Positions 12,705-29,955 of a stretch of DNA of 64,000 nt are shown here, piece by piece. Below the pieces are notes generated by a model that was not told the DNA's origin, did no database searches, and worked only from the letters and a program-made list of their open reading frames with translations. This stretch comes from Naegleria gruberi. Lineage: Eukaryota. A program made the position numbers and the translations under genes. The DNA lies in NCBI GenBank assembly GCA_000004985.1, contig GG738845.1. One strand, given 5' to 3'. Each line of letters opens with the position of its first letter. The stretch's first letter is position 1.

Positions 12705-12724
12705 TCGAGTTAACTCATTGACTT

Positions 12725-14949
12725 TTATTTCATAAACTTCTTGAGGTATGTAAATTTTCTTCTCTTTTGTTTTTCAGTGAGCTTTTCGTAAGGTGATTGA
12801 TTATCAACAGGTTGTTCTTCTGGTTTTTGTTCAACAAGAATGGTTTGTTCATCCAATTCAAATGGATCATAACCTTTGGCTTGAATGATCTTTTCCTTCT
12901 TTCTCTCAAGAGACTCGGTATGAACATTGACACGATTGAAATCATCAATTTCACCTTCCCATTCCATTTCGTCCTCAGATTCTTCTAATGTAGCCTCTTC
13001 TTCTTCATCAGAGTTGTAAATGTCTTCTTCGTCATCATGATATTCTCCTTCTTCTTCGTCTTCACTTTCTGTAAAGTATTCACCATCGTCTTCCAATTCT
13101 TCATCATGATTAATGACAATGATTTCATCATTATCATTAAGCATTCCTTCTGATTGTATCTTATCATTTTCTTCCAAATCATCAACTTGAATATTTTCAG
13201 GAGGTGCATGGCAATACAGAATTTTACCATCTATGTAATCTTTCAAAATACGACGAGCAGCTGTTGGATAGTTGGGCACGAAATTCTTGGACATCAAACT
13301 CTTTGCAATACAAAAAGTCTTAAGTAAATTTTCTGGAGTAACAAATGTCATACGTTGTTTTCCAGGAAGTTTTGGGAACGACAAACCATATGTAAGTTCG
13401 AAAACACGTCTAGGAACACGACAACAAACCAATTCTATTGGTGGAATGTGATCTCTCATTTGGTGATCAATTGAAATAATACCATTTACAATCATTTCTT
13501 CCTTGGTTGTTGTAATTGATGGGAAAACTAGACCTGGACAGTCAGCAATCATTATACTTTCACCAATTGGAAGTGTTTGGAAATGTTTTGTTTTACCTGG
13601 AGTGGAACCAACTGCAACCTTCTTTTTACCACATAACACATTTACAAGTGATGATTTACCAACGTTTGGATAACCGACCATACCAACAACAACTCTACCA
13701 ATGTCACTCTTCTTATTTTCAGGATTGAACTTATTCATCAAACTCTTAAAGAAGAATAACAATTCAGATCTATCAAAAATATATGTCCAATCTTTTTCTT
13801 GGGGATTTTCATAATTAGTAGTATCGAATGAATCTAGTTCCTCTTGTTGTTCTTTTAAAAGATCTTCTCTGGTAATTTGACGATTTGCAATTTTAGAAAT
13901 TTCATTCAAAGCAGAGAAGAAGATAAAGTTAATCTTCTTCTTTTTAAAGTAGCATGCCCATTTGAATCTTTGCTTTTTTGTAAGCAAATCAGCCTTATTC
14001 AAAAGTAAAAAGTTTTCCTTTGATGAATCAACCTCTTTCACATACTTTTCTAAATCTTCACTTTGAAATAATAATGGATTACGAGAATCTACAATTTGAA
14101 TAACAATGTCACTTCTCTCCACAACACGCCATAATTGTCTCCAAACTTCAATGTTCTTTTCATATGGTGTGAGTGTAGCATCATAACTTTCTTCAATCTC
14201 TGCCAAATTTCTTCTCCACTTTAAGAATGATTCGGTTTCAAATTGAATGAGTTTCTTCTTTGCTAGTTCATTCTTTTTTTCCTTTTTCTTCTTTTTCTTC
14301 TTTTGTTCGGGCTCAGTTGACTCTTGAACATAATTCATCAAATCATAGGCTTCCTTTGGTCTTCTAGGTATTGGTAATTGTATTCCCATTTCTTGTAATT
14401 CACGAACACGTTCATAAATTTCATCTTGTGATTTTTCCTTCAAAACCAATGTTCCTTCAGCATAGGCTTCATCGTCATCATCTTGATTTTCCTCATCTAA
14501 AATTATTTCATATTATTTAAAAAAATTATTAATCAATGATAAAACATACCATCTCCTTCTTCTTCTTCATCCCTATCAACGACATGAAATTCTCTCCGAG
14601 AGCCATCTTCATCAGTATGTATTAAAACAGTAGCACTATCTTTTTCATACTTTTTTAAGCTCATCTTGGCGTTTAACATTAAATCTTGGAGATCTGTTGT
14701 TCCAATTAAACTTTCCAATTTTCCTCTGCCTTTGTTGAGCATATTGTGCATGATATTATCTTCACGTAAAATTTCTTCTTCGATAGGAAGTTCATCGGAG
14801 CCCATGGTTACGGTTTCTTTACCCAATATTGCATCAGCAACTGGTTCTTGATGTCTATCAGAAAACACCTTGTCCTTCTTTCGGTTACGAGCTTTTAAAA
14901 TTGTTTTACCTAATCCTCCGGATTTATTCTTGGTTCTTGTTCCTGGCAT
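12725..14949 (-). CDS. LSG1: Large-subunit GTPase 1 (LSG1, circularly permuted GTPase), 2 exons
   Basis: Exon 1 is 14949..14550 (MPGTRTKNKSGGLGKTILKARN...). The intron is 14497..14549 (gtatgtttt...ttttag, 53 nt). Exon 2 is 14496..12725. A long block matches human LSG1: LKWRRNLAEIEE...WRQLWRVVERSDIVIQIVDSRNPLLFQSEDLEKYVKEVDSSKENFLLLNKADLL. The G-motifs appear in circularly permuted order: GYPNVGKSS, then DCPGLVFP. There is an acidic C-terminal tail. Confidence 0.88.
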
Positions 14950-15022
14950 TTTTTTGATTCAATTATTTACGTGAATGGAACAATTTAATGATTATACCAA
15001 TTTTTTTACTTTCTGTTGTTGA

Positions 15023-16324
15023 TCAGTGTTTTGTTGTGAGTGAAAAAGTGTGATTACATTTGAGAATTTCCTGTGTTTGCATTTGGGAAAGTCTGTTGCT
15101 TATTAAAAACACCTTTGTTCTTCCTAGAAGATCTCCTGTTGCCATTAGCATTGGATTATGTTTGTTGAACTCTAGACATGAAAGAGCCTTTCCATCTTGT
15201 GAAACGTCAATATCATTAATTGGCTCAGTTGTGGACTCTAAGAGATCGAACATGTATAGGTGTCCATTGGAGCTGGCAACAGCAACTACCATTGGACGAA
15301 ATGGAGAGAATTTAGAACAACTACTAGGATCAGTGGATGGTTGCAAAGTTAGAATATCTTTTGTTCTGAAAGCATTATATATCCTTACTAATCCGTCACT
15401 GCAACAAGACATAAATAAATCCTTATTAAAAGTATTGGCATCAAGAGTGTAAATAATTCCAGTTCCAGAGTCAAATTCAGATTCCATCTTTTCTTCCTTA
15501 AAGTTTACATTTGTTTTCTTTAAGGTAGCCATTTTTCTGGTGCTAATCATTTTAGAGTCTGATATCGATAGTTTAAACACATTTCCAACTTCTGTTCCTA
15601 AAATAAATGAGCTGTCAAGTGTTGGTGTTTTCTTTTGAGATAGGGCGCTACTGCCAAATAAATTTAAAAAACAAAGTGATGAACCACCCAAAGGAGTAGA
15701 CTTGAGTGGGCTATTCAGGGCAATCGCGTGAATAGGTTGCTCTAGCTTGTTATGTAAACTCCATAATAATATTTTTCCGTCTCCACTCATACTCAATATA
15801 AGAAATGAGTCATCATATCTATTTCTTACCCATTGAAGACTAGTTATTGGATCTCTATGGGAGTAGGATTCAATTGAGGTTTGGCAAAGAAGACTGTCTG
15901 TATCCTGATGAAGTTTGTAAACCTTAATACCTCCATCATATGTACCTGCTGCAATAATATTATGCTTATCTGGATGGAATGCTAATTTCATAACGTAACT
16001 CTCTTCGTTTTCGATTGTAACTTTTGGTTCTAGGTTGTAATCTGTATAAATATCAGGATTTATCAAAAAGAAACACATATATCCTGGATCAACACACCAC
16101 CCACTAGCCGAGGGTTTTCCAAAGCTCACACCCAACATGTTTCCTTTACAATTCCAAGATAAGTCAGTTACTGACAATGGTTCATGTAACTTTTTAATTA
16201 TTCTCTCTGGTAATTTTAATTCGTGAGCTGTTGACATTTCCTCAATATCCACAGACCAATTAACATCGTAATCAATGAACGATAAATAATGAACTGTTTC
16301 AGCGTTAATCAATTCCTTTTCCAT
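15023..16324 (-). CDS. WD40-repeat protein, dynein intermediate-chain-like (possibly flagellar); the 5' end is uncertain
   Basis: The ATG is at 16324 (MEKELINAE...). The WD repeats are GTYDGGIKVYKL, HRDPITSLQWV...SMSGDGKILLWSL, CCSDGLVRIYN, ASSNGHLYMFDL and ATGDLLGRTKVF. The frame stays open about 35 codons upstream of the ATG without a start codon, so an upstream exon is possible; the 16452..16727 ORF is a candidate for it. Confidence 0.5.
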   Translation of the reverse strand: MEKELINAETVHYLSFIDYDVNWSVDIEEMSTAHELKLPERIIKKLHEPLSVTDLSWNCKGNMLGVSFGKPSASGWCVDPGYMCFFLINPDIYTDYNLEPKVTIENEESYVMKLAFHPDKHNIIAAGTYDGGIKVYKLHQDTDSLLCQTSIESYSHRDPITSLQWVRNRYDDSFLILSMSGDGKILLWSLHNKLEQPIHAIALNSPLKSTPLGGSSLCFLNLFGSSALSQKKTPTLDSSFILGTEVGNVFKLSISDSKMISTRKMATLKKTNVNFKEEKMESEFDSGTGIIYTLDANTFNKDLFMSCCSDGLVRIYNAFRTKDILTLQPSTDPSSCSKFSPFRPMVVAVASSNGHLYMFDLLESTTEPINDIDVSQDGKALSCLEFNKHNPMLMATGDLLGRTKVFLISNRLSQMQTQEILKCNHTFSLTTKH

Positions 16325-16927
16325 TTGAGGGTAGACTTTTTTCAAGAATGTAGATATTTCTCCTTCATTGCTTGTTGTTTCATTCCTTACTCTTTTAATA
16401 ACATCCTCAATTGAGTCCGTTTGTATCTTCCCTTGTAAACATTTAAATAATTTACTTCCAACCTACTTCTTGATCGGCCACAATGCCTTGCTCCACTGAA
16501 AAATCATTACTAATACATGATGCATTGGATTGAACTCCAGAATCCTCAAAAGACAAACTCATCGTCTGTGTAGAATGGTCTGCACTCGGATTCTTTTTCT
16601 GGCCCCACTTTGAATTAAAATTGGCTCCTTGAACAAATCCGAACGAATAGAAAACTTCGTTATTTGCCTTGTTCATCTTGTATTTTTTTGTTGTTTGACC
16701 AAAAATTTGGCGCTTTTTTTTGTACAAACATCGACAATATTCACTAAACTTTTTCCAGTGGAGCTTGATTAAATTAATATGGCTCTAATTCATGTTTTGT
16801 GAGAAACCTGAAGAAAGTTCCTGACACCATTGACATCACTATCCAAAACCAGGTAAAAATGTTTTAGCCCAAGTAAAAAATTATAATTATTTATTAATTT
16901 AAAAGTAAGCTAAATGAAATTGATAAT

Positions 16928-19900
16928 TTAAACAATTGTCTTTCTAATAATTCTTCCATCTCCACCAGATGTATAGAAAAATTGAGTGCTTATCTCAGAC
17001 CATGTAACACCTTCTTGAGTGAAAAGTTTCTTCTTTGGGTGAGTGTCTGGATAAAAGTATAATTGTTTCTTTAAATTCTTCATATCCCAAACAGTTATGT
17101 GACCATTGGAGCAACCAGTAACAAAGAAATCTTCTGTAACATCAATATTTAAAACTTGAATACTGTCATGTTGAGTGGAGGTCTTTTGTAAAAAACCATA
17201 ACTTCCATCTTCTGCATCAAAGATGTAAATATCTCCCTTCTTGGTACCAACAAGTAATAGTTTATACTTGTAAGAATAGCGAAGGGCAATTGGTTCATCA
17301 TTGTTAGGGAATAAGTAATAGAACATTTTAGCATCTTGATTTGGCAAGAATAAATCCCAAATACACAATTCGCCTCCCTTTTGTGATTGTCCAATAGTTG
17401 CAATCAAACTGCCTGACTCTAAAAATGAAAAATCATTTACCTTAGTGCCATGACAATGTAAATGATAAAAGTAATGTAGACTTTCCTTGGATGCTTCAAA
17501 TCTCCATAATGTAAGATAACCTGATGTATCTGTGACACCAAATTTGTATCCAAATCTGGAGAAACGAATGTTAGTAATTGGTGATGTACCAGGTTCTCTA
17601 TAAGTTCTCAAAGCATATTGGAATCCATATTGCCACATGAATACAGAACCATCTGCACCTCCAGATATATAGAAAGGTAAAAATGGATGAGATACTAAAA
17701 CGTTGGCTGTTTGATTTCTGTCAATTTTTCCAACTTTTTTGACTGGTTGTTTAGATGGAGGAACATTTGATTGTCTTCTAAAATGAGATGCAGATGGAGT
17801 TGTAGTCGTGAAGGAAGGTCTTTTACCAACAGAAAATCTTTGTTTAAGCTTGTTCATATAAGAATTGCTTGAATCGACAGAAGACATTGGATTGGAGAAA
17901 CCAATAAACTTTTTCAAATTCTTGTTGGACATGGCTTCATCATCATTTACCGTATCTAGGAAGTCAAAAACGTTAAAGTTTGAAATGCTTGGAACTTTAG
18001 CAATAGAAGAGGACTGCTGTACAAACTTGGTATTATTTACATCCTTGGCAGCAATTTCATCAAATCGGTGGAATGATTGATCCCAAGTATTGGCTTCCTC
18101 ATCTAAAAGTTTGTCAAGTGAAGGATTTCTCTTTCTGTATCTAATAGAATGTTCAATATTAATCTCTCTAATACATTTGCCAGATGCATATGCCAAATAG
18201 CTTGGGTTATTGGAGTCTACACAGAAAGATTTGATCAATTCTTTACATTTGACAATTTCAATATCTGCAGAGAATTTCAAAACTTCATCTGATTCTGTCT
18301 TTGAGAAGTCGGAGGAAGTTTCGGTAGTGTTCTCACCACTAGCAAATTTTGCTAGACTACTATTGACGCTTACGGAACTGCTAATATTTGGTTTTGGTTT
18401 AGATGATAAATCCATCAAGTAGCTCCATAATTGTTGGGAAGTTGGATCAGACTTGAAAGTATCGAAAATCTTTTCATCCTCTAACCAATGATCACTAATA
18501 CAAGACAAGAGAAGATTTTGTTGTCCTCCAACTTGTTCCAATCCCAACTCTGGTAGAGCATGTGCCAATGAGTGGAAATGATCCTTTGACGATTGAGTAC
18601 GTTGATGCATTTTCTTTGATCCATGAGAAAGGGTTTCTACCATGCTTGATAAATTATTTCTTGTTGAGAGTGCGTTTACATCTTTCAAATTAGGAGCCCC
18701 ATGCTCAGAGACAGTGTATACTTCCATTTCTCTATATTGAAGTCGTCTTTCTAAATGGGAGCACCACAATGCAGAACATGAAAGAGCAGTTTGTGCACAG
18801 AGTGAATATTGTTGCTTATTGATATCATCCCTCTTCTTTTGGGATTGTTTGACAAATCCAGAGTAGGTTTCATCATAGGCATGTTCAATAAAATCCTTTA
18901 GAGTTGTTGTAAACTTGAACACTACAAATGCATCAAACATTTCCCAATGAAATTGCTTTTCAATTCTTTCAACATCCTCGTTTCTATCACTTCCAGATTT
19001 TGTGGTCTTGTTGTGATAGTTTTCGAGAAGATTTTTGTAATAGTCTTTCTTCTTCTCAGCTTCTTCTTTGTTAATGATCAAACCGGATGTCTTATTGACA
19101 GGAGCTTTTTTCTTTCTTTTCTCTTCTTGGTCAATTTCCTCTTGCATTGCCTTGTTTATCTTATTATCCAACATCTTTTTCTTGAATTTTTTGTGGAACA
19201 TGGCCATTCTATCGAAAAGTAAATGATAAAACTTGTCAAATACTTCTTTTCCTTCAAAGCTTGGACGAGAGGACAACGAATCTCTTTCCTTTTTATCAAA
19301 ATCTTGATGAAGAGTAAAAAGTGTGAAAAGCCCCTCAAAATCACGGTTAAAGTATAAAATTACAAACATCATTGTCTATTCAAGTTAAAAATGATCTATG
19401 TTTTTTTCAAAATACTTACTAAAAGAGTTGATGAGAGATCTGATTGTTGGTGTTCGGTAATGATTACCTTATTGCTCTTCATTCTACTGTAACAATGGAC
19501 ATATTCCTTTAGTAATCCTTCTAAAACGTTAACTTGTGATTTTCTTAATTGATTCTTGATTACAAGAGAAAGTGTGTTTTCAACTTGATAAACAAAAGAT
19601 TCCAAAATTCTAAGAATTGAACTTGGCTTGGAGCAAAGTAAACACCTTGCTGCTAATAATCCATTGACTCTTGTGAACACTTTGAGCTTTTTGATTAGCA
19701 TTTGTTTGTCAATATCCAATTTTTCAACAAGCTCATCAATATCTGTCATTATCTTCTTATGATTCTTGTCCCAGTCACTGTGGTAATTTGAATTGGTACG
19801 ATAACAACAATCATAAAGTTCTTGAGAAATGATTGTGAGGGCTGTTTTGAATTTGAGAAGTTCAGTAAGATCAGTTTGTTCTTTAGCATCCTCAATGGAA

Positions 19901-22900
19901 ATAGTGGAAGAGTTCAATTGCTGTTGTTTAGTGTTACCCATTCCCATACCACTCATTCCACCAAACCCACTCAAAGTTCCACTTGCAAGATTTCCTGATG
20001 TGCCTGATCCTCTCATGGAGTTACTCATTCCCATATTGTTCATTCCACCAAATCCACTCAGAGTTCCACTAGATAGATTTCCAGAAGCCATGGAATTACC
20101 CATTCCCATACTGCCCATACCAAACCCACTTAAAGTTCCACTTGCAAGATTGCCCGAGTTAATGGAAGAAGTCTTACTCATTGAATTACCCATTCCCATA
20201 CCACTCATTCCACCAAATCCACTTAAAGTTCCACTAGACAAATTTCCAGAAGCCATGGAATTACTCATTCCCATACCACTCATTCCACCAAATCCACCCA
20301 AGGTACCGCTAGATAAGTTGCCAGATGTCATAGAGCTATTCATACCCATTCCCATACTACTCATTCCGCCAAACCCTCCCAAAGTTCCACTTGTCAAATT
20401 TCCTGAAGTACTAGGTGTAGTTTTAGGTGTCCCAAAGGCTCCCATATTGATTTGACCAGACATTAAATCATTTTGTCCAGTTGAAGTATTCAACTTTCTT
20501 TTAGAAGTATATTGTTCCATATTTTTAAGTTTCAATAAATGTTCTAAACAAAGTGTGTAAAGTCCAACTTGGCTATAATAATGAGCAGTTCTTAATAATA
20601 TTGGAAGAGCATGCTTTGCAACAAGATCTGATGAATTCAAGTGTGGCTTGGAATCTACCTTAATACAGAATGCAAAAAGAGAAGGATCAAAAGCTTCATT
20701 CTCCTCTCCTCTCTTGATGAGTGTTTCAATGGATGTTTCATACTTTTTCAGTGTCCACAAAATAACACCTTGCATCCATACATCCTTGCTTTCAGTGTAT
20801 CGTTGATAGAGTTCATTTTCCAACATGTTCTTACAGAAATTACTATCATCACCACAATATAGACGAGCAATGAAGAAAGCTAAATCGTATTCTTTGGCGC
20901 TTTTGATGAGAATACTGATAGCGTCTTTAGGATTATCAGCAAGTAAAAAATATGCGGCAGCATAGTAATAATCCTGTCTACTAAGTAAAGTATAGGCATT
21001 CTTAGATGCTGCTACTCTACATTTTTCATCTGTGAAATCCTTATTTAAGAATTCAGCAACCTTCTCATTACCTTTGAGTTTGAAAAGTCTAGCCAATGCT
21101 CCTTTCTTCTTAATAGCCATATAATACAAAGCACATTTGGTAGGATCATTTGTTTCCTTATAAATTTCTGTTGCAAGTCGTTCAGCAACCTTTCTCAAAG
21201 AATTATTATTCATCCAGTAACAAACACCCAACTGTTCTACAAGTTTCCAACAAATATCCTCTTCTTCTGGGCAAATCATACGCCATAATGAATCCTGTGT
21301 TTCAGAAAGTAAAGCCCAAGCTATCATTGAACTGTTTACCTTTTCTATTAATAAATTATCATGCTCCGTTGATGATTTTGAAGAATCCCTCATTTCGGGT
21401 TTTCTTTTATCGTATAGAAACTGTAAATACTTGACTGTCACAAGATATCTGATACCAGCTGGATCTAAGGCTTCAGGATTTCTTTGAAGCTCAATAAAAG
21501 TGTCAACTACAGCCTGTAAGTTCATTTGCTCTATCTTTGAAATGCCAGGTAAGTGAATACTACTTTTAGAAAGGAGAGAGTTTAAATAATGGACATCGGA
21601 ATAAATGTTAATTTCTTCTTCTTCAGTTTCTGTCGGGGTTTCCTTCTTTTGGTTTTCTTCTTTGGCTATTTCTTCGTCAATATTTGTGAACTTGTCAAGG
21701 AGTGTTCTTCTCTTTTGTACAACAGGTTCTGTCTTCTTTGATTCTTCCTTTAAGAGAGAGGTCACTTTAATTGATGGAATTTCCAATAGGTGAGAATAGT
21801 CCTTGTCCTTATTTAGATATTCTTCAATTTTATCATTCTTCTTCTTTTCAACCAAATCTTCATAAATCTTCAAATGCTTAACTAAATGATGTATAATTGT
21901 CTTGATTATACTAAATCTTCCATCCATAAGTAATTCTAAAAGGAAATTTGGGTGATAGTCTACTAGTCTTCTGTGCGTAAGTAAGGATTCTGTATTAAGA
22001 GTTGGTTCAGATGCCAATTTGAAAAGAGACATTAGAGCAAGAGAATCATCATTTTGTTGAGTCTTTGTGTACACATGCAAAGATGAACCAAAAGAGGCGA
22101 TAATAGCCTTATCCTTTGTAACTGTAATTTTGGAACATGGATGACCTTTAACTGAAGGCATAAATTGTGTAACCTTTTTCCAGTATTGTTTTTGTTGTTT
22201 GATTATTCCTGGAGGTATCTTTGATTGAGTGTAGTACAATATCTTGGAATCTGTTCCAATACAAATAACAAACTGACCGTCTCCATAGCTCAACCATTCA
22301 AAATCGTGCACGAAATCACTCTCTGTATTGATAGATTGTTCTAATGTGTATGTTACATGGGATTCATTTTCCCAAATTTTTACACAACTTGAGGAAGAGG
22401 TTGTAGTAGCAATTCTAGAAACCAATTCACAGCACCTAACAGTAGTAATTGGTTCTTTTTCGGCTCTAAACTCGAACCACTTTTGTAATATGAGTTTTTC
22501 CTCATCTGTATTAATACTGGCTGTAGAAGAGCTAGAATTGGAAGTAGTGGCGGTAAATTTTCCAAGAAGACCACCAATCTTTGGTTTCGGAGGCTCTTTG
22601 ACTTCATTTTCCTGTTTTTTCAATCTTATTACAGAGACAGTACCATCCTTATTACCCAGAGTAATAACTACCACTCTTTGATTAGAAAAATACTTCTTAA
22701 TACTGGATTCATTTGATAAAGCTGTCTTACTCTCTACAGTAAAATGTTTTAAAGTTGTATATAAAATTAAATGACTTACTATGAATATCATACACAAAAG
22801 GAACTCCTTTTACACAGTCTGCACTGCAAACGATCTTTTCAAGATTTTGTTTGATAAGGGTTTTACATTCGAATTGATTTACATCATTTTGCTTTGCCTC

Positions 22901-24968
22901 AACTTGGAAAATGCCAATGGTTTTACAATTCGAAGCAATAGCAACTACCAATGCTCCAATTGAGGAGGTTTTTTCTGGACTAGTAGGAGATGTTCCAAAA
23001 GGCAAAACTTTGAGGAACATACAATCAGAAAAATCTTCTGAATTTGGAAGAATAAAATTCAATGAATGAATATTATAGTAAGAAGGTGAAGGTGGAAATA
23101 TTGTAGATTCATAGATGCTAGAGAGGTTGTGAGTGAGAGGGTTGACTGATTTTACGTGAATGACTTCAATACCTTTGTTTGTTGAGCAAAACAAATGAGG
23201 AGAAGTAGGAAACCATGAAATATTTGTTGCATTAATTTGAAAATCTTGAATATTGGTCAAAACATCTTTAGGGCTATAAAATGGTGTATCTCTTATATGC
23301 CATGCTACAAGATGGTTATTATCCTTATCTAATGATGCCATTATTGGTAGACTTGGGTGGCATTCCATATTTTTAACATCTCCAATATGTCCTGTAAATA
23401 CATTAAGTAATTCTAATTGAGGACGTTTAGCCAAGTTTAACTCCCAACTAGATAACATTCCATTTCTACTTTGTACATAGATTGTTAAAATTTTTGGAGT
23501 TGTAGAACCCAAATCAAGATTTGAATCATCAGCTGTTTTGTAAACCATTGATACATTTAATGGATCTTCAATACCTTTTAATGCATTAGGCATCTTTATC
23601 CACATGGAAGTTTTTGGAGTTCTTCTTGGAAAATCGGCCAATCCTTGTAATAAATCAATCATTAATGTACCATCAGATTGAACTGTTCCTAACCATGTTT
23701 GTGATTCGAATAGACCTGTATCAGAACTTGCTTTTTGAAGTTTAGTCTCCAAACTGATCTTTGTCTCACTCTCTAAAATTATATCCTTGTGATCACCTTC
23801 ATAAGACTTCTTTCTTTTTTTTCTGAGGTATTGTAGAAGTAGCTCATTTGGGCTCCTCTCATTAGCTGTATTTAACCATTGCACATTGGAAGGAGTTTCC
23901 TTTTCAATGATAGAACAAACATAAAATGACAAGTCTTCATTCTCGTTTGTTTCACTCCATACACGTACCACATTGTCAATAGATGTTGTCAATAAAACAT
24001 TAGCTGTAAATTCATCTCTTTGTTGTGATTGTATATCCTTAAATCTCCATGAGATGGAAGTAACTGAACGAGGATGAGGTAAATAAATGTAGGAAAAACT
24101 TTCTTCTTCATCATCCTCAATAGTTTGTGAAGTAGATTTTGGATCTACAATAGTAATTACTGGAGTAAATAATGATACTCTGACTTGAGGTTTGTTTCTA
24201 TACCAAACCTTTACAAGACGATCAAACTTGGACACTGTTGCAAAATATTTTTCATCTGGTGAATATGCAACTAAGTAAATTGGAGTTGGATTGTCATATT
24301 TCCAAACCATATTCCATTTCTAAACTATATTATAAATTTCTAAACATAAAGAAACATACATAAACTTGATTTCCTAGAATAGGTTTTCCTTCAAAAATCA
24401 TTGTAGTTTTTCCACCAACAATTAGTCTATCACCATAAAAATTCCAATCCATGCATTCGAATTCATCTGTTGAGTTAATAACCTGTTCAACAATCCAAGA
24501 AGGGCTCTTTTTCAAGGCACCATTGTCAACCTCATCTTCAACTGGAGAATAAATAACAATTTTTCCTCTTGAGCAAGCAGCAATTCTTCCATGAAGATTA
24601 CTCCATTTTACGCTGGTAATAGTTTCATCATGACCATCCAATAATTGAACAAAACTATTTCCACAATAAACCATAACATGTCTTCCGCTTGCAAAAGCAA
24701 TCACTTCATCACCCATAAATGTTGACCATGTAAAAGCTTGAGGATAGGGATTAATAGAACCAGGACAAACCTGCCAAGCATTAATCCCTTTTGATCTGTT
24801 GATACTTGGTGTTGTCTGTTGTTCCGTTGCATTGGATCCTAATATATTTAAACCGTTTGAGAAGATATTTCCTCCAAACGATGATGAAGAACCAGCAGGT
24901 GTAGAGGGAGTACTTTTTGGTGTATTAACCAAAGGAGTAGTGGTTCCGCTCGAAACACCGTTAAACAT
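16928..24968 (-). CDS. DMXL: DmX-like / rabconnectin-3 alpha / Rav1 homolog (V-ATPase assembly regulator), 4 exons, ~2636 aa
   Basis: The exons are 24968..24360, 24319..22780, 22733..19420 and 19375..16928. The introns are 24320..24359 (gtatgt...gtttag, 40 nt), 22734..22779 (gtaagtcat...ctgtag, 46 nt) and 19376..19419 (gtaagtat...gaatag, 44 nt). All phases are consistent and the total is 7911 nt. The N-terminus AWQVCPGSINPYPQAFTWSTFMGDEVIAFASG...LDGHDETITSVKWS matches the DMXL N-terminal WD region. The exon 2 start ...VAYSPDEKYFATVSKFDRLVKVWY matches the DMXL 'FSPDG.FFATAGKDD.LLKVWY' block. C-terminal WD repeats are GGADGSVFMWQ, GCSNGHITVWD and SGGDGRI. It joins four separate track ORFs. Confidence 0.72.
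19925..20440 (-). repeat. In-frame coding tandem repeat (~75-nt unit x ~7) encoding a 25-aa Gly/Met/Ser/Asn-rich unit inside exon 3 of the rabconnectin gene
   Basis: The protein reads ...SGNLSSGTLGGFGGMSGMGMSNSMA SGNLSSGTLSGFGGMSGMGMGNSMS..., about 7 imperfect copies. On the + strand the DNA shows the recurring unit cattcccataccactcattccaccaaatccactyaaagttccac. The antisense Pro-rich ORF 19829..20455 is the mirror image of this periodicity. Confidence 0.85.
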
Positions 24969-25113: not shown

Positions 25114-25668
25114 TTATTCTAAAACCATTTTTTCTTCATTTTCCTTTTGTTCCTTACTTCCATTATATACAAGTCTATCAAAGGAGCCAAATATTTTTTC
25201 CTTATCAGGAATATCAAGGTTTGTTAGGATGGCAGGTATCTTTGACATTATTTTTGGAAGTTTGGGTATTGGATTTTCTTTTGTTAGTTCATCACTCGAC
25301 AAACAATGTGCAAATATACAACAATTTTCATCCTTTACATTTTTTTGAACAAAAGTCTTGTACCAAAATTCCAATTCCTTTACATGATTAATGTTTGAAG
25401 GATTATACACTATAATACATCCGTTCATGTCCTTCATTATTGCAGGCCAACAATTTTCGAAATTTCGATCTCCAGAAATATCCCAAAGTTCTACCGACAC
25501 CTTTTCCATTGATTGCATCTCTCTATCACATTCGCAAATTCTTAGACCCATAGTTGGTCTGTATTCATTTGAAAATTCCTTATATCCACTAAGAAAATTA
25601 CAAATAGCACTCTTGCCACTCTTTTTTGGTCCAACAACAATAAGTTTTACAGTTTGTGAGTCACTCAT
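25114..25668 (-). CDS. IFT22: Intraflagellar transport protein 22 (IFT22 / RABL5), atypical small GTPase
   Basis: It begins MSDSQTVKLIVVGPKKSGKSAICNFL. The blocks ELWDISGDRNFENCWPAIMKDMNGCIIVYNP and ELEFWYKTFVQ are collinear with human IFT22: FELWDCGGDAKFESCWPALMKDAHGVVIVFN and MEMWYSCFVQ. It is 184 aa. The ATG is at 25668. Confidence 0.75.
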   Translation of the reverse strand: MSDSQTVKLIVVGPKKSGKSAICNFLSGYKEFSNEYRPTMGLRICECDREMQSMEKVSVELWDISGDRNFENCWPAIMKDMNGCIIVYNPSNINHVKELEFWYKTFVQKNVKDENCCIFAHCLSSDELTKENPIPKLPKIMSKIPAILTNLDIPDKEKIFGSFDRLVYNGSKEQKENEEKMVLE

Positions 25669-25908
25669 TTTTTTTGTAGTTTTATTGGCACTCTCCCGCC
25701 AATATGCAAAAGAATAAGAATAGAATTTGTAAACCGGTTATTTCTCTTGAAGTTTTCGTCCACCATTCGAATGTTAGAGGTCATAACCGATATTTGATGC
25801 TGGTACCTTATTGCACCACTTAAAAATTTAGAGTCCCCACTAAACAATAACGGGCAACAAATTGAAAAATTTGCCAAGTCAAAAAAAGACACCAAACTGG
25901 CTTGAACG

Positions 25909-26652
25909 ATGCACTTCACAAAACCAATTGAAATTCCTCTCAACAGGTCCACATACCACGAATTAGACTACAATAGATATTGCCAACACTTTAGAACTAT
26001 TTCTAAACCTACCACACACCCATGTGTTAGTAAACAGAAGAAACCTATTCTGTTGGAACATCCCAAGATGCTTTCAAATTTGCACAAGAACTTTTCTTCA
26101 CAATCCATGAAAAAATTGGAGAAAGAAATATTGTTTTCACAACCTATTTTGAAACAATCATATGCGCTGCATGAAGATGAGCTATTAGAAGAAATGGTTT
26201 GCATGATTAAGAATCATAAACTCGCAAAACAAAAGGTCAACTCTACACAAGAGCCAGTTCATCAATCAGATAACGAAGAAACCAGAAGATTATTTGTTTC
26301 CAATTCACTTACAATCAAATTTCTAGAAGAACAGGATGTTGTCTTGATTACAGTATCTGAAGAATTACAAATTTCACAAGTGGTGGATGCCAATTTTCAT
26401 TTAAAGGTTGGGAGAATTGTTAAAAAATTAGAGTTTGATGAGTGTTTAGTAGAAGTTGGAACTAATGACATTGTTACTGTGCCATCATTCTGTCTCTGTC
26501 TAGAAGATAGGGTTTTGTTTGATAGAATGCAAACTATGAGAAATAAGATGATATTCAGAAGAAGCAATGAAGAAATTAATGAATTGGAAATATCAATGGA
26601 AGAAAAACAAGATGTTTCCTCAAAACCAAAAAGAAAGTTCAAGAGTTGTTGA
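25909..26652 (+). CDS. Hypothetical protein (247 aa), no recognised domain
   Basis: It has a clean ATG at 25909 and an open frame to TGA at 26650-26652. It lies divergent from IFT22, about 240 nt away. The composition is typical of the neighbouring genes. Confidence 0.4.
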   Translation: MHFTKPIEIPLNRSTYHELDYNRYCQHFRTISKPTTHPCVSKQKKPILLEHPKMLSNLHKNFSSQSMKKLEKEILFSQPILKQSYALHEDELLEEMVCMIKNHKLAKQKVNSTQEPVHQSDNEETRRLFVSNSLTIKFLEEQDVVLITVSEELQISQVVDANFHLKVGRIVKKLEFDECLVEVGTNDIVTVPSFCLCLEDRVLFDRMQTMRNKMIFRRSNEEINELEISMEEKQDVSSKPKRKFKSC

Positions 26653-26883
26653 GCTGTCAAATTAATTTGTAAAACAACAAATGAATGGTAGAAAGAACTT
26701 AATTGAATTAAATGAGAAAGAAAGCTTAATGAAGAATTGATGTATGAATTCAAATCAGACAATTTGATAATATTTTACAACAAACCAGTTAACAGTTTTT
26801 TGCAATAAAGTGCAATGTACGATCAATCATAAAGGTTTGAAGATTTTAAACAACGTTATTACCATCTGGCCAAGTTTTATTTT

Positions 26884-27921
26884 TTAAAAAGAGAAGAAAT
26901 GATCACCACGTTTCATTTCTAATTTTTCTTCCAAAACCTTCTTCATTGCAGCCAACATTGGTGGAGGTCCACACATTAAAATATTCATCTTATCACCCTT
27001 TGCTGGCAAGTACTTTTCAATCAATTCTTGAGTAATAAAACCAACACCTTGAGTCCAACCAGCTGGTGGTTCGTTCAAAACATTGAAAAGAGTAAAGTTC
27101 TTGTGTTTAGATGCCAATTCCTCGAGTCTATCACGCAAAATGATATCTTGTTCAGTCAAATTACCATATAATAAACTAACTTCAGTCTTGTCATCTTCAT
27201 GTTTGAGAATTTCTTCAATAACTTGTAACATTGGAGTAATACCAGTACCACCGGCAATCATACCCAATTTGTTATACTTGTTCTTTTCATATGTAAAACG
27301 TCCCTTTGGACCACTAACCAAAATACTTTCTCCAACTTGCATATTTTCCAAATGTTGGGTCATTAATCCTTTTGGATAAATTTTGGCAACAACATCGAAG
27401 AATCCCTTATCATCATTAGATGATGTTGGTGTATAGCTTCTAGCGATTTCTTCTCCATTGATTGAAGCCCTATTACAACAATTATTCCGATTGTTAAAAA
27501 GGATAGTAGATTACACTTACTTCAAGGAAATGTGTTGACCGACTGGTAAACCCAAGCACTTTCCAGTTGGAAGTTCAAATCTAAAGAGACGAACTGGGCA
27601 TTTAACTTCAGGACCATCGGTAAGAGTGATCTTTTTGATGAGTTTGAATGGTCTATATTCTTCGGTGGAGAGAACACCTTCACTCTTTACAGCAGCAGTA
27701 GTATTACTGGTAGTGCTGATTGGTTTGGTTGGTTTACTACCCATAAGTTTTTTAATTAAAACTGAAAAAGCTACTATAGCAAAAGCTGTTACTCCAAGTG
27801 TTGTCAAATCTCCGGAGAGAAGTCTTTCAATTNNNNNNNNNNNNNNNNNNNNNNNNNNNNNNNNNNNNNNNNNNNNNNNNNNGATCTTCATTAATTCGAA
27901 ATAGATTAAAGTTGATTTCAA
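26884..27921 (-). CDS. CYB5R: NADH-cytochrome b5 reductase (membrane-anchored); 2 exons; the 5' exon is interrupted by a scaffold gap
   Basis: Exon 1 runs from about 27921 to 27521 and contains the N run 27833..27882, so the start is uncertain (MKI-gap-...). It has the TM anchor LTTLGVTAFAIVAFSVLIKKL and the FAD domain FRFELPTGKCLGLPVGQHISLK. The intron is 27470..27520 (gtaagtgtaa...gtaatag, 51 nt, phase 2). Exon 2 is 27469..26884: ASINGEEIARSYTPTSSNDDKGFF...MIAGGTGITPMLQV...CGPPPM. It aligns with human CYB5R3 across the splice junction. Confidence 0.82.
27833..27882. other. Run of 50 N: an assembly or scaffold gap of unknown true length
   Basis: Literal n characters occur in the sequence, inside CYB5R exon 1. 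Confidence 0.99.
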
Positions 27922-27995
27922 AAATTAATGCATGTATTTTACGGCTGTTGATTTTAAATTGATTTAAATTATTATTTATTAGTTTTGAAACTTCT

Positions 27996-29955
27996 TTAAT
28001 TGGACCAAACATCCTTTTGATATCTGTGACCTAATTTTTCCAAATAATCTTGGGCATCCTTTTCAGTCATTCTACCATATTTTTGAATACTGTTCAACAT
28101 TACATTTTCTACATCCTTTGCCATATGTTTAGCATCACCACAAATGTAGAAATAGCCACCATTATTCAAAAAGTTGAATAATTCTTCACTTCTAGATTCT
28201 AATCTATGTTGAACGTAAACCTTATTTCCTTGATCTCTAGAGAAGGCAACATCTAAAAGAGAAATAACACCATCTCTTTCTGCCTTTTCCATTTCTTCAC
28301 TATAAATATAATCTTCACCTCTCTTTCTACAACCAAAATAGAGATGACATGGTCCTAGTTCAACTCCTCTATTCTTCATAGCTGTTCTTTGTTCAAGGAA
28401 TCCAAGGAATGGAGCAATACCAGTACCAGGTCCAACCATGATAACAGGAGTCTTTGGATCTTGTGGAAGACGGAAACTTGATTGACGAACATAAATAAAA
28501 GCCTTTTTGTCTACATCAATTCTTTCCAAATATGATGAACAGACACCTTCCTTGTTTGCTCCGATTGGAGTAGTATACTTGACAACAGCAACAACGGCGG
28601 AAATAGTATTTGGATGTAATTGAGATGAGGAAGCAATAGAGTAGTAACGAACTTGCATCTTTGGAACAATTTCTAAAAGGCCGTCAACTGGTAACTTGAC
28701 AGATGTGAAATGATTCAAAACCTCAAGAACATTACGACATCCTTCCTTAACAAAAGAATTGTACTTGGCTTTACCCTCCTCGCTATTTGAAGCAAGAAGT
28801 TTGAGTTCAGTACGTTCAGATTCATTTTGAGCATAGTGAGCCATAACTTTGAAAGCTTTCTTCTTTGCGAGTTCATTAAGATCCATATAATAAGTGAATG
28901 CAATTCTGAGAGTCATTGCATCCTTTGGGAAATAACTAGCCAATCTGTTATCTTTGTGATTTCTCAATTGGAATGGTGCATCGGCTTGTTCATTAGTAAT
29001 TCCGATTCTAGCCAAATAAGCATTTACCAAATTTTCATTATTAGCTGGATAGACAGCCAAGTGATCGCCTGCTTCATATTTGATTCCACTATCAGTAATG
29101 TTGAAATCTACATGAACAGTACTTCTATTATCCGATCCAGAACTCTTCAACAATTGTTCCTTCTTACTAATGGTAGCCAAGAATGGGTGTTTAGCATCAG
29201 GAGCAGAACTTGATGATTTGAATGGGGTCATGGCAATATTCTTCTTTAAGAAGTCGAGAGTAAACTTTGGTTCATATTCCTCTTCTTCTTCTGTAATGGT
29301 TGTAGAGAAAATGTCAGAAGCTGTCAATAACATGTGTGACTTCCATTCTTCAAAATCTTCTTCAATATCAGCATCAGCATCACCTTCTCCCTTTCTAAAG
29401 AATCTTTCACCACCGAGCTCTTCAAATCTTTTATCAAAGAATCTCGCCATTGCTTGGTAAATCTTGTATTGCTTGTTACCCAATCCAAAAACAGAAAACT
29501 TGACACCTGAAAGCATATCAGAGGAAATACTTGTGTCTTTGTAGTATTCATAAAAATCACGAGCGTTATCAGTTGGTTCACCCTCACCGTAAGTTGCAAC
29601 CATTAGGATGACAAGTTTTTCATTTGAAATTTGGTCAGGCTCAAAGTCAACCATATCCTTAGCAACAGCATTAAAGCCGTACTTTTTAGCATCTTGTGCT
29701 AATGTATTAGAGAATTCTTCAGCTGTACCTGTTTGAGAACCATAGAGAATGAGCATCTTTGGCCTTCCATCATCAACATATTCCTTGCTAAAGTTTAAAA
29801 TTATTTTAAATTTAATTATCTTATACAGTAGAAAATAAAACCTACTTTTCTTCTTCAACTTCTTCTTCGGTTTCTTGGTTATCCGATCTCAGGACAAACC
29901 AGTAGGTAAAGAAAGCACCAATAGCAGCCAAAAATCCATATAAAATGTAACTCAT
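27996..29955 (-). CDS. CPR: NADPH-cytochrome P450 reductase (CPR), 2 exons
   Basis: Exon 1 is 29955..29846 with the signal anchor MSYILYGFLAAIGAFFTYWFVLRSDNQETEEEVEEE. An alternative ATG at 30031 is possible. The intron is 29788..29845 (gtaggtttt...ctttag, 58 nt). Exon 2 is 29787..27996. It has the FMN domain MLILYGSQTGTAEEF...YGEGEPTDNA, the FAD motif RYYSIASS, the NADPH motif GPGTGIAPF, and the C-terminal DVWS. Confidence 0.88.

What the first reader, a model, noticed from the sequence alone, without database searches (positions are those of the whole stretch)
19925..20440. Expanded in-frame coding minisatellite inside the rabconnectin-3/DMXL gene
About seven tandem copies of a 75-nt unit encode (S-G-N-L-S-S-G-T-L-S-G-F-G-G-M-S-G-M-G-M-G-N-S-M-A)n. 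Copies differ by a few substitutions, which suggests recent expansion or contraction. The Gly/Met/Ser/Asn 'GFGGMSGMGMG' composition resembles FG/GLFG-like or prion-like low-complexity linkers. It is not expected in Rav1/DMXL proteins. It may be a lineage-specific insertion. It is also a likely site of length polymorphism, or of assembly collapse or expansion.
Basis: seen in the sequence. Interest (0 to 1): 0.55.

Follow-up and report, generated by a model that had tools for sequence, protein, structure and literature searches.

The report
Amplified linker motif in Rav1/DMXL gene
The repeat is a real, translated six-copy array in a floppy linker of a V-ATPase assembly factor (Rav1/DMXL) from a Naegleria-like amoeba, and it is an old, selected multiplication of a short motif that sits at the same spot in Rav1/DMXL proteins from amoebae, fungi, insects and mammals, not a recent or foreign insertion.

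Summary
The tandem array is real. It lies on the minus strand at 19930-20409 and has six units of 72-93 nt (24-31 aa). A degenerate founder copy, LMSGQINMGAFG, lies just upstream at 20410-20466. The array is in frame in exon 3 of a 2,636-aa Rav1/DMXL homologue (Pfam Rav1p_C, E=5.6e-86). The closest named relative is Willaertia magna (Heterolobosea).

The units are only 74-86% identical in DNA. Synonymous sites are nearly saturated (pS 0.56) while protein sequence is kept (pN 0.10). The array is therefore old, translated and constrained, not recently expanded. The longest exact internal repeat is 32 nt, so assembly collapse is unlikely.

Orthologues carry related Gly/Met/Phe stretches of different length at the same position. 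More distant Rav1/DMXL proteins carry a related motif in 1-9 copies between the same two conserved helical segments. Its form is [ST]G-x-Φ-[DN]-Φ-x-x-[FW]-G, shortened to GLDFG or ΦDWG. It is found in dictyostelids, chytrids, Mortierella, a choanoflagellate and a mosquito. Mite and mammal sequences show it by eye.

Best reading: a lineage-specific, acid-free amplification of a family-wide linker motif, probably a multivalent binding array whose partner is unknown. The prion-like and ALPS-like readings failed their tests.

The parts
16928..24968 (-). Rav1/DMXL (rabconnectin-3 alpha) homologue. Four exons at 24968-24360, 24319-22780, 22733-19420 and 19375-16928. Introns are 40, 46 and 44 nt (GTATGT or GTAAGT ... 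TAG). The spliced product is 2,636 aa.
   Evidence: ORFs. Junctions were read from the sequence and checked against orthologue P0002. The spliced model has no internal stop. Pfam finds WD40 hits in exons 1, 2 and 4 and Rav1p_C in exon 3.
20701..22527 (-). Rav1p_C domain: the end of the second beta-propeller plus the alpha-solenoid, which is the V1-binding region in yeast Rav1.
   Evidence: Pfam PF12234, E=5.6e-86, ORF residues 91-699. Matches yeast Rav1 in PDB 9cop chain x, E=5.3e-36, query 414-695 to Rav1 847-1113. Domain roles come from PMC11648922 and PMC8264551.
19903..20505 (-). Predicted disordered linker of about 200 aa (exon-3 ORF residues 765-965) between the last solenoid helix and the next conserved helical region.
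   Evidence: The AF2 model of the fragment gives coil with pLDDT 25-31 for fragment residues 165-365, flanked by helices. The alignment is shallow and overall confidence is low. Both flanks are conserved in orthologues.
20410..20466 (-). Founder or degenerate motif copy, LMSGQINMGAFGTPKTTPS. It is the positional equivalent of the single motif in distant homologues.
   Evidence: Best hit (12.4 bits, independent E 8.4e-6) of an HMM built only from motifs of distant homologues. Aligns with LMSGQINMGSFG, LMTGTLDMSSFN, LLTGEIDMHSFG and IMSGALDMSSFG in P0002, P0009, P0010 and P0011.
20329..20409 (-). Unit 1: TSGNLTSGTLGGFGGMSSMGMGMNSSM (27 aa)
20254..20328 (-). Unit 2: TSGNLSSGTLGGFGGMSGMGMSNSM (25 aa)
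20161..20253 (-). Unit 3: ASGNLSSGTLSGFGGMSGMGMGNSM plus spacer SKTSSI (31 aa)
20089..20160 (-). Unit 4: NSGNLASGTLSGFGMGSMGMGNSM (24 aa)
20002..20088 (-). Unit 5: ASGNLSSGTLSGFGGMNNMGMSNSM plus spacer RGSG (29 aa)
19930..20001 (-). Unit 6: TSGNLASGTLSGFGGMSGMGMGNT (24 aa)
19420..19902 (-). Conserved helical region downstream of the linker (AKEQTDLTELLKFKTALTIISQELYD...). It is the downstream anchor that fixes positional homology of the linker. Metazoan DMXL has ...QLKFIACLKILMEEL... here.
   Evidence: Alignment with P0002 and P0003. AF2 helices with pLDDT 54-89. An iterated HMM anchor was found in 25 homologues. Metazoan sequences were read by eye.

Best explanation
The array is a translated part of a Rav1/DMXL V-ATPase assembly factor from a heterolobosean (Naegleria/Willaertia-like) amoeba. 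It lies in the disordered linker that starts where the alpha-solenoid ends. In yeast Rav1 that solenoid binds V1.

Each unit has the form [SGNL]-x-[SGTL]-x-[GFGG]-[MSGMGMG]-NSM. It is a duplicated, acid-free, Gly/Met-rich derivative of a short motif found at this exact position across the family. The family motif is [ST]G-x-Φ-[DN]-Φ-x-x-[FW]-G, shortened in many lineages to GLDFG or ΦDWG.

Shown:
- the array is real, coding and old;
- residue order is under purifying selection;
- the position is homologous across the family;
- the same position has been independently built into tandem arrays in several eukaryotic lineages.

Inferred mechanism: the linker works as a multivalent array of weak aromatic-glycine binding sites on a flexible, uncharged tether. 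More copies raise avidity for a folded partner. That partner could be a subunit of the V-ATPase or RAVE machinery, or a beta-propeller or appendage-type domain. The partner is unknown.
For: Gene identity:
- Rav1p_C E=5.6e-86, with WD40 propellers on both sides.
- Yeast Rav1 structure 9cop, E=5.3e-36.
- The closest named homologue is Willaertia magna KAL9648804.1, 52% identity.

Coding and constrained:
- One continuous 1,133-aa ORF spans the array.
- Among units, pooled pS is 0.56 against pN 0.10, and pairwise dN/dS is mostly 0.05-0.18.
- Orthologues at 55-58% identity keep both flanks and a G/M/F-rich segment of different length, roughly 55 to 190 aa.
- All 4 indels between two 99.42%-identical strains of the orthologue are multiples of 3. 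Two of them lie in or next to the array.

Family motif:
- Regex matches occur in 42 of 122 homologues (96 matches) within 300 aa after the solenoid. Shuffling in 30-aa blocks gives 2.9 proteins and 3.1 matches.
- Density is 2.8 per 1000 aa in the tail against 0.04 elsewhere.
- Between the two conserved anchors there are 57 matches in 4,754 aa, against 4 in 45,647 aa outside.
- An HMM built only from distant homologues hits the 2,636-aa window protein at exactly seven places: the founder copy and each of the six units, in register.
- Willaertia bridges the forms with LMSGQLSGFGGFG, MSGTFGGFGG and NTGTFGGGFG.

Independent arrays elsewhere (the regex listing shows at most six matches per protein):
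- Dictyostelium purpureum and Synstelium, GLDFG x9 between the anchors; Heterostelium, x7.
- Borealophlyctis, five G/S-[IL]-DWG regex matches, with a sixth (GLDWS) seen by eye; Powellomyces, three DWG matches.
- Mortierella, x4.
- Unnamed P0017, seven near-identical 34-aa units DSGTMNFFGGGMMGMGMGMG.
- Mosquito DMXL2, SIDWGAP and GFDWGAP.

Seen by eye only: mite AFDWGAP; mammalian DMXL1 SAIDWSQS and LSFDWSQPS.

Disorder: the AF2 model gives coil with pLDDT 25-31. Yeast Rav1 becomes disordered right after its solenoid, at residues 1194-1357 (PMC11648922).
Against: - The six units individually score weakly against the distant-motif HMM (-5.4 to +1.8 bits). Their FG lies one or two residues closer to the SG than in the canonical motif, and the conserved acidic residue is missing. 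Descent from the family motif therefore rests on position, the Willaertia intermediates and the founder copy, not on a significant per-unit score.
- The regex was written after looking at the tails. The shuffle and outside-tail controls address composition and position, but the search was not blind.
- The six DMXL representatives over 2,700 aa that rescanned (P0085, P0108, P0153, P0141, P0104, P0133) had no regex hit. Two of them, mammalian DMXL1 (P0085) and mite (P0108), showed DW[GS] variants by eye. P0085 was still unmatched by the widened pattern. The other four were not read by eye.
- No binding partner is known and none was tested.
- No paper I could search mentions the motif.
- Copy number in this species has no independent confirmation. 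The only other contig of the species stops before the array, and no exact-product match was found.
- The AF2 model used a 3-sequence alignment and has low overall confidence.
Confidence: 0.55

Rival explanations
1. The array is a passive spacer. It is tolerated low-complexity sequence that only has to stay flexible, uncharged and of roughly the right length. The repeats reflect slippage or unequal exchange and have no sequence-specific function.
For: Linker length varies about 3.5-fold between orthologues at 55-58% identity, roughly 55, 145 and 190 aa. One relative (P0003) has no minisatellite at all. Small in-frame indels segregate between near-identical strains. The region is predicted disordered. 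The 181-aa query (founder copy plus array) has no detectable homologue as a sequence.
Against: Residue order, not just composition, is kept across units while synonymous sites are near saturation (pS 0.56 against pN 0.10). Gene conversion would have homogenised the silent sites too. A related ordered motif recurs at this position across eukaryotic supergroups, far above block-shuffle expectation.
Confidence: 0.25
2. The array is a cohesive FG-like or Met-rich low-complexity domain that drives self-association or condensate formation of the RAVE-like complex, possibly sensitive to methionine oxidation.
For: There are six or seven FG dipeptides at a spacing of about 25 aa in an almost charge-free Ser/Gly/Asn/Thr matrix, with 15% Met. 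Met-rich low-complexity domains with redox-regulated self-association are documented for TDP-43 and are reviewed more widely (PMC7682574, PMC8394241, listed). The region is predicted disordered.
Against: Asn is 9.4% and Gln 0%, so it is not Q/N-rich prion-like. Only 160 aa and about 6 aromatic residues is few for a cohesive FG domain. In most other lineages the homologous motif is acidic (GLDFG, IDWGAP, SGILDFDSFG) and resembles a peptide ligand more than a cohesive domain. No other protein with related units was found.
Confidence: 0.12
3. The array is an ALPS-like amphipathic lipid-packing sensor that folds onto curved membranes and brings the complex to vesicles.
For: The composition looks ALPS-like: Ser/Thr/Gly-rich, almost no charge, and bulky L/F/M residues every few positions. 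A membrane-proximal role would suit a V-ATPase assembly factor, though this last point is inference.
Against: The alpha-helical hydrophobic moment is no higher than in shuffles: mean 0.156 against 0.154, with 44.5% of shuffles reaching the observed value. The maximum is 0.279, against about 0.46-0.50 for two reference ALPS sequences recalled from memory. Gly at 29% disfavours a helix. The only significant periodicity is about 120-130 degrees, a three-residue spacing.
Confidence: 0.03
4. The array is an artefact or is non-coding: an assembly expansion or collapse of a shorter repeat, or an intron that transcripts skip.
For: The window comes from a scaffolded draft with a 50-N gap at 27833-27882. 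No independent contig of this species spans the array.
Against: Units differ at 14-26% of nucleotides and the longest exact internal repeat is 32 nt, so reads can place them. The gene's real introns are 40-46 nt, not 480 nt. The frame stays open. dN/dS is about 0.1. Orthologues encode the same kind of peptide at the same place. Indels in the orthologous array are in frame.
Confidence: 0.05

Closest known systems
Rav1 / DMXL1 / DMXL2 (rabconnectin-3 alpha), the scaffold of the RAVE and mRAVE V-ATPase assembly complexes
   Same: It has the Rav1p_C domain, N-terminal WD40 propellers and an alpha-solenoid homologous to yeast Rav1 (9cop). It also has a DMXL-type C-terminal WD40 region. As in yeast Rav1, order ends right after the solenoid (PMC11648922). 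Regions of mammalian DMXL1 and Dmxl2 are described as unstructured (PMC12246789).
   Different: The linker holds six Gly/Met-rich, acid-free units instead of one to a few acidic ΦD[FW]G motifs. At 2,636 aa the protein lies between yeast Rav1 (1,357 aa) and metazoan DMXL (about 3,000 aa or more).
Tandem motif arrays at the same linker position in other Rav1/DMXL proteins: dictyostelid GLDFG arrays, chytrid G[IL]DWGAP arrays, the Mortierella four-unit array, and the seven-unit array of unnamed P0017
   Same: They occupy the same position between the same two conserved helical anchors. They share the same core (small residue, hydrophobic, D/N/S, aromatic, Gly) and the same tendency to be multiplied head to tail. 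P0017's unit SGTMNFFGGGMMGMGMGMG is close to the window's SGTLSGFGGMSGMGMG.
   Different: Unit lengths differ: 16-23 aa in dictyostelids, about 15 aa in chytrids, 34 aa in P0017 and 24-31 aa here. Most of these arrays keep the acidic residue that the window's units lack. P0017's copies are nearly identical, which implies recent growth, whereas the window's copies are old.
Multivalent short-motif arrays in disordered regions, such as FG repeats of nucleoporins, DPF/DPW repeats of endocytic adaptors and GW/WG 'Ago-hook' repeats. This analogy comes from general knowledge and was not tested.
   Same: Each has many copies of a tiny aromatic motif flanked by small residues, on a disordered, low-charge tether. 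Copy number evolves fast while the motif stays.
   Different: The host protein is neither a nucleoporin nor an adaptor. The motif core (SGFGG here, ΦDWG elsewhere) matches none of the named consensus motifs exactly. No partner is known.
Met-rich low-complexity domains, such as the TDP-43 C-terminal domain and Met-rich prion-like domains
   Same: Gly/Ser/Asn/Met/Phe-rich, uncharged and predicted disordered (papers listed).
   Different: It lacks Gln and has little Asn. It sits in a membrane-traffic scaffold rather than an RNA-binding protein. Its ordered, periodic unit is conserved as a motif.

Membership tests
Rav1/DMXL (rabconnectin-3 alpha) family | Rav1p_C domain (Pfam PF12234) above the curated cut-off | tested here: met
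   289.8 bits against a cut-off of 27, E=5.6e-86, ORF residues 91-699
Rav1/DMXL (rabconnectin-3 alpha) family | Sequence homology to the experimentally solved yeast Rav1 alpha-solenoid | tested here: met
   PDB 9cop chain x, E=5.3e-36, query 414-695 to Rav1 847-1113
Rav1/DMXL (rabconnectin-3 alpha) family | N-terminal WD40 beta-propellers, and for the DMXL type a C-terminal WD40 region | tested here: met
   WD40 and beta-propeller Pfam hits in exons 1, 2 and 4. Most are below the family-specific cut-offs, as is usual for divergent WD40 repeats.
Rav1/DMXL (rabconnectin-3 alpha) family | Promotes V1-Vo assembly; binds V1 subunits and Rav2/ROGDI | not testable with these tools
   Function is known for yeast and metazoan members only (PMC11648922, PMC12527914).
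Coding minisatellite (in-frame tandem repeat) | Head-to-tail copies of a 10-100 nt unit, with lengths in multiples of three and the frame kept open | tested here: met
   Six units of 72, 72, 75, 81, 87 and 93 nt, all multiples of 3, inside a 1,133-aa ORF.
Coding minisatellite (in-frame tandem repeat) | Unit-number polymorphism between individuals | not testable with these tools
   No second assembly of this species spans the array. In the orthologous species, two strains differ by 9-nt and 3-nt in-frame indels but not by whole units.
Family-wide Rav1/DMXL linker motif ([ST]G-x-Φ-[DN]-Φ-x-x-[FW]-G, or ΦD[FW]G), defined here | Located between the end of the alpha-solenoid and the next conserved helix | tested here: met
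   All 7 window matches fall between the two anchors. Family-wide, 57 matches fall inside and 4 outside.
Family-wide Rav1/DMXL linker motif ([ST]G-x-Φ-[DN]-Φ-x-x-[FW]-G, or ΦD[FW]G), defined here | Significant match to a profile of the motif built from distant homologues | tested here: inconclusive
   The founder copy scores 12.4 bits (independent E 8.4e-6). The six units are found in register but score only -5.4 to +1.8 bits.
Family-wide Rav1/DMXL linker motif ([ST]G-x-Φ-[DN]-Φ-x-x-[FW]-G, or ΦD[FW]G), defined here | Acidic or amide residue before the aromatic position | tested here: not met
   The units read SGTL-S-GFG and the block has 2 charged residues in 160. The founder copy has N (QINMGAFG).
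FG-nucleoporin repeat domain | Many FG cores (GLFG, FxFG or SxFG) in an uncharged polar spacer | tested here: inconclusive
   There are six or seven FG dipeptides (SGFGG or GGFGG) in an uncharged S/G/N/T matrix. The cores are not GLFG or FxFG and there are few of them.
FG-nucleoporin repeat domain | Carried by a nucleoporin with an NPC-anchoring domain | tested here: not met
   The host is a Rav1/DMXL protein.
Prion-like (Q/N-rich) domain | Strong enrichment of Gln and Asn | tested here: not met
   Asn 9.4% and no Gln in the block sequence. The block is dominated by Gly 29%, Ser 23% and Met 15%.
ALPS amphipathic lipid-packing sensor | High alpha-helical hydrophobic moment with a Ser/Thr/Gly polar face | tested here: not met
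   Mean moment 0.156 against 0.154 in shuffles (44.5% of shuffles reach the observed value). Maximum 0.279.

The most novel reading that the evidence does not exclude
The window's array may be one extreme of an undescribed, pan-eukaryotic short linear motif of Rav1/DMXL proteins (ΦD[FW]G / SG-x-Φ-x-Φ-x-x-FG). The motif sits in the disordered linker after the V1-binding solenoid and has been repeatedly multiplied in tandem. It is present by eye in mammalian DMXL1 as IDWS and FDWSQP. On this reading it is a functional docking site for a conserved partner, and its copy number tunes avidity.
Probability: 0.4. Interest if true: 0.65.

Novelty: new variant of a known kind. Interest (0 to 1): 0.45.

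Why it matters
On its own, a low-complexity repeat in a linker is ordinary. Following this one up showed that the place it occupies is not arbitrary.

Rav1/DMXL proteins from Discoba, Amoebozoa, Fungi, choanoflagellates, insects and (by eye) mammals carry a related aromatic-glycine motif at the same point. That point lies between the solenoid that binds V1 in yeast and the next conserved helical region. Several lineages have independently multiplied the motif.

How RAVE and mRAVE are recruited and released during V-ATPase reassembly is still being worked out (PMC12527914, PMC12246789). Those papers treat these parts of DMXL as unstructured. A conserved, multiplied motif there is a concrete and cheap hypothesis to test by mutagenesis and peptide pull-down in yeast, Dictyostelium or human cells.

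For genome annotation, the result says the array should be kept as coding sequence. It should not be masked or modelled as an intron.

Tried and rejected
1. ALPS-like amphipathic helix. The helical hydrophobic moment equals that of shuffles, so this was rejected.
2. Prion-like Q/N domain. Rejected on composition.
3. Homology search with a 181-aa query (founder copy plus array). Of 7,651 candidates, none scored E<=0.001, so no other protein family with related units was found. The composition filter may also hide true relatives such as P0002.
4. Independent confirmation of copy number. An exact-product look-up of the exon-3 ORF found nothing. The only same-species contig (L003, Logan ERR1078381, 99.95% identical) ends at window 20844, before the array.
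5. Identifying the organism from run or assembly accessions in the literature gave no hits. A word-indexed search with the C-terminal exon gave only two unnamed metagenome proteins.
6. The antisense 208-aa ORF (19829-20455, plus strand) has no Pfam match. It is a by-product of stop-free reverse complements of Gly, Ser and Met codons.
7. Intron reading. Rejected because the gene's introns are 40-46 nt and the array shows a protein-level selection signature.
8. The PDB sequence search returned only yeast Rav1, so no solved structure covers the linker.
9. Text searches of two reviews or papers on RAVE and four on mRAVE/DMXL found no mention of this motif.
Full report
**1. What is in the sequence**

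TRF reports overlapping arrays between 19934 and 20408 with periods of 72, 75, 93 and 165 nt and 76-79% matches. The direct-repeat finder gives six copies of a 67-nt core with start-to-start spacings of 87, 72, 93, 75 and 81 nt.

The repeat is coding on the minus strand. Translated, it reads as six units:
- TSGNLTSGTLGGFGGMSSMGMGMNSSM
- TSGNLSSGTLGGFGGMSGMGMSNSM
- ASGNLSSGTLSGFGGMSGMGMGNSMSKTSSI
- NSGNLASGTLSGFGMGSMGMGNSM
- ASGNLSSGTLSGFGGMNNMGMSNSMRGSG
- TSGNLASGTLSGFGGMSGMGMGNT

The block spans 19930-20409, which is 160 aa. The copy number is six clear units plus one degenerate copy just upstream (LMSGQINMGAFG, 20410-20466). Unit length is irregular at 72-93 nt.

The block is 29% Gly, 23% Ser and 15% Met, with only 2 charged residues in 160. 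That is very unlike the rest of the exon. Nothing similar occurs elsewhere in the window.

**2. The gene**

The array sits in a 1,133-aa ORF (19396-22797, minus strand) that carries a Rav1p_C domain (E=5.6e-86). WD40-bearing ORFs flank it on the same strand. The ORF matches yeast Rav1 in the RAVE cryo-EM structure 9cop (E=5.3e-36).

I read the three exon junctions from the sequence and checked one against an orthologue. This gives four exons, introns of 40, 46 and 44 nt, and a 2,636-aa product with no internal stop. The array is residues 1492-1651.

The closest named homologue is a hypothetical protein of Willaertia magna (Heterolobosea, Naegleriidae) at 52% identity. With 33% GC and few, tiny introns, the window is most likely from a Naegleria/Willaertia-like amoeba. 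That assignment is an inference.

**3. Coding, old and constrained**

The units are 74-86% identical in DNA. In a codon alignment of the units, pooled synonymous difference is 0.56 per site and non-synonymous difference is 0.10. Pairwise dN/dS is mostly 0.05-0.18. Silent sites are thus close to saturation while the order of residues is kept.

This pattern rules out three things:
- a recent expansion;
- gene conversion as the reason for similarity, because conversion would erase silent differences too;
- a non-coding or intronic status.

The gene's true introns are 40-46 nt. The longest exact repeat inside the array is 32 nt, so collapse or expansion by an assembler is unlikely. I could not obtain an independent assembly of this species across the array. 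The window does contain a scaffold gap, at 27833-27882, but it is 7 kb away.

**4. Orthologues**

Two environmental orthologues (55% and 58% identity) align well on both sides of the array. They carry Gly/Met/Phe-rich segments of different length at the same place:
- About 145 aa, with a 54-66-nt array of SGNLSSGT[FL] units (L001).
- About 55 aa, with no minisatellite (L002).

Two contigs of the first orthologue's species (L001 and L004) are 99.42% identical. They differ by four indels of 3, 12, 9 and 3 nt, all in frame. Two of these lie in or next to the array, but there is no whole-unit change. It is unproven at the scale of whole units.

**5. Where the array sits in the protein**

In yeast Rav1 the alpha-solenoid spans residues 762-1194, and the remaining 163 residues are disordered and unresolved (PMC11648922; also PMC8264551).

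The window's match to Rav1 ends at residue 695 of the exon-3 ORF, which aligns with Rav1 residue 1113. An AF2 model of the fragment was built from a shallow 3-sequence alignment and has low overall confidence. It places the last helix at ORF residues 744-764, coil with pLDDT 25-31 from 765 to 965, and a helical bundle afterwards with pLDDT 54-89.

The array is therefore the linker that begins where the solenoid ends.

**6. The unexpected part: a family-wide motif at this position**

An exhaustive HMMER search gave 1,238 homologues, and I inspected the best 150. The nearest ones carry, at the equivalent position:
- LMSGQINMGSFG
- LMSGQLSGFGGFG...MSGTFGGFGG...NTGTFGGGFG (Willaertia)
- LMTGTLDMSSFNFGGGGFGMGMGMG
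- LLTGEIDMHSFGG
- IMSGALDMSSFGMGGF

More distant homologues carry these forms:
- SGTFDFSAFDDGFGDF (Codosiga)
- SGTFDFDNWGFGG (Chromosphaera)
- Four copies of MSxMGGF...DSGxLDFDSFG (Mortierella)
- GLDFG arrays: nine copies between the anchors in Dictyostelium purpureum and Synstelium, seven in Heterostelium
- G/S-[IL]-DWG copies: five regex matches in Borealophlyctis with a sixth (GLDWS) by eye, and three in Powellomyces
- SIDWGAP and GFDWGAP (mosquito DMXL2)
- AFDWGAP (spider mite), seen by eye
- SAIDWSQS and LSFDWSQPS (mammalian DMXL1), seen by eye

One unnamed protein (P0017) has seven nearly identical 34-aa units DSGTMNFFGGGMMGMGMGMG..., very like the window's unit.

Controls:
- A regex for the motif hits 42 of 122 homologues (96 matches) in the 300 aa after the solenoid. 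After shuffling within 30-aa blocks it hits 2.9 proteins (3.1 matches; maximum 9 matches in 200 shuffles).
- Density is 2.8 per 1000 aa in the tail and 0.04 elsewhere in the same proteins.
- In the 25 proteins where both flanking anchors could be located by an iterated HMM, 57 matches lie between the anchors (4,754 aa) and 4 lie outside (45,647 aa).
- An HMM built only from distant homologues' motifs hits the full window protein at exactly seven places. The founder copy scores 12.4 bits. Each of the six units is hit in register, but with weak scores.

Caveats:
- The regex was designed after I had seen the data.
- The per-unit scores are weak.
- The window's units lack the acidic residue, and the spacing between SG and FG is one or two residues shorter.
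- The six DMXL representatives over 2,700 aa that rescanned had no regex hit. The mammalian and mite sequences among them showed DW[GS] variants by eye; the other four were not read by eye.

**7. Interpretation**

The window's array is best read as a lineage-specific, acid-free, Gly/Met-rich amplification of an ancestral linker motif. The double SGNL-x-SGT[LF] form is shared with the P0002 species. Together with the saturated silent sites, this suggests that the amplification predates the split of the two species.

I commit to a multivalent binding array on a flexible tether, in which copy number tunes avidity for a folded partner. This is an inference from three observations: ordered conservation, an aromatic-glycine core, and repeated independent multiplication. 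No partner is known.

Rivals:
- A passive spacer. Length plasticity speaks for it, but conservation of residue order argues against it.
- A cohesive FG-like or Met-rich domain. The composition fits, but Q/N content is low and the homologous motifs elsewhere are acidic and ligand-like.
- An ALPS-like membrane sensor. Tested and not supported.
- An artefact or intron. Unlikely.

**8. Literature**

[quoted passage not shown] In the texts I could search, none describes a motif at this position. That is absence of evidence in a limited library. It is not proof of novelty.

**9. Verdict**

The gene assignment is right. The 'recent', 'unexpected' and 'prion-like' parts of the interpretation are not supported.

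As a repeat it is an ordinary coding low-complexity array. Its modest interest comes from exposing a conserved, repeatedly amplified linker motif in a medically relevant protein family.

Noticed in passing
window 27833-27882: A run of 50 N, which is a scaffold gap, lies inside a minus-strand ORF next to an oxidoreductase NAD-binding-domain gene (26884-27363). It shows the window comes from a scaffolded draft assembly.
   Followed up: partly
window 24800-24968 (minus strand), N-terminus of the same Rav1/DMXL gene: A second low-complexity patch, rich in Ser, Thr and Pro, contains SFGGNIFSNGLNILGS. In the orthologous species, two of the four in-frame indels between near-identical strains fall in the corresponding N-terminal region (L001 6512-6554).
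   Followed up: partly
window 19829-20455 (plus strand): A 208-aa antisense ORF (PIPIPLIPPNPLKVPL...) overlaps the array. It has no Pfam match and is explained by stop-free reverse complements of Gly, Ser and Met codons.
   Followed up: yes
P0017 residues about 1505-1740 (unnamed ENA protein, 2,778 aa): Seven almost identical 34-aa units, DSGTMNFFGGGMMGMGMGMGxGADPAPAAPQTAT, sit at the same linker position. This looks like a recent expansion in another lineage and contrasts with the old, diverged units in the window.
   Followed up: partly
P0085 (Tamandua DMXL1) about 1955-1975; P0067 (Sabethes DMXL2) about 2238-2260: Directly after the DW[GS] motifs, metazoan DMXL proteins have LELKWDSDNNEENED or FKIEWDDDDKQDNEDEDSDE. 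From memory, these resemble tryptophan-acidic kinesin-light-chain-binding motifs. This was not tested.
   Followed up: no
L003 (Logan ERR1078381) against window 20844-22985: A contig 99.95% identical to the window, so the same species has been sequenced elsewhere. It has one amino-acid difference (I to L in GDGQFV[IL]CIG). It is colinear through the 46-nt intron, so it is genomic or unspliced, and it ends in what looks like adapter sequence (translated ...KIGRAHV).
   Followed up: partly
window 42825-42878, 21636-21675, 47461-47501, 56314-56353: Other short tandem repeats with periods of 12/24, 14, 15 and 21 nt were reported by TRF and not examined.
   Followed up: no
window 11418-16345 and 25114-29858 (minus strand): Neighbouring genes by Pfam: an MMR_HSR1-type GTPase (12725-14449), a WD40 protein (15023-16345), a small Ras/Roc-like GTPase (25114-25668) and a flavodoxin/FAD/NAD diflavin reductase (27996-29858). 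The 428-aa ORF at 11418-12704 had no Pfam hit at E<=1e-5. Gene order around the orthologues differs from the window, with an acetyltransferase upstream and other genes downstream.
   Followed up: partly
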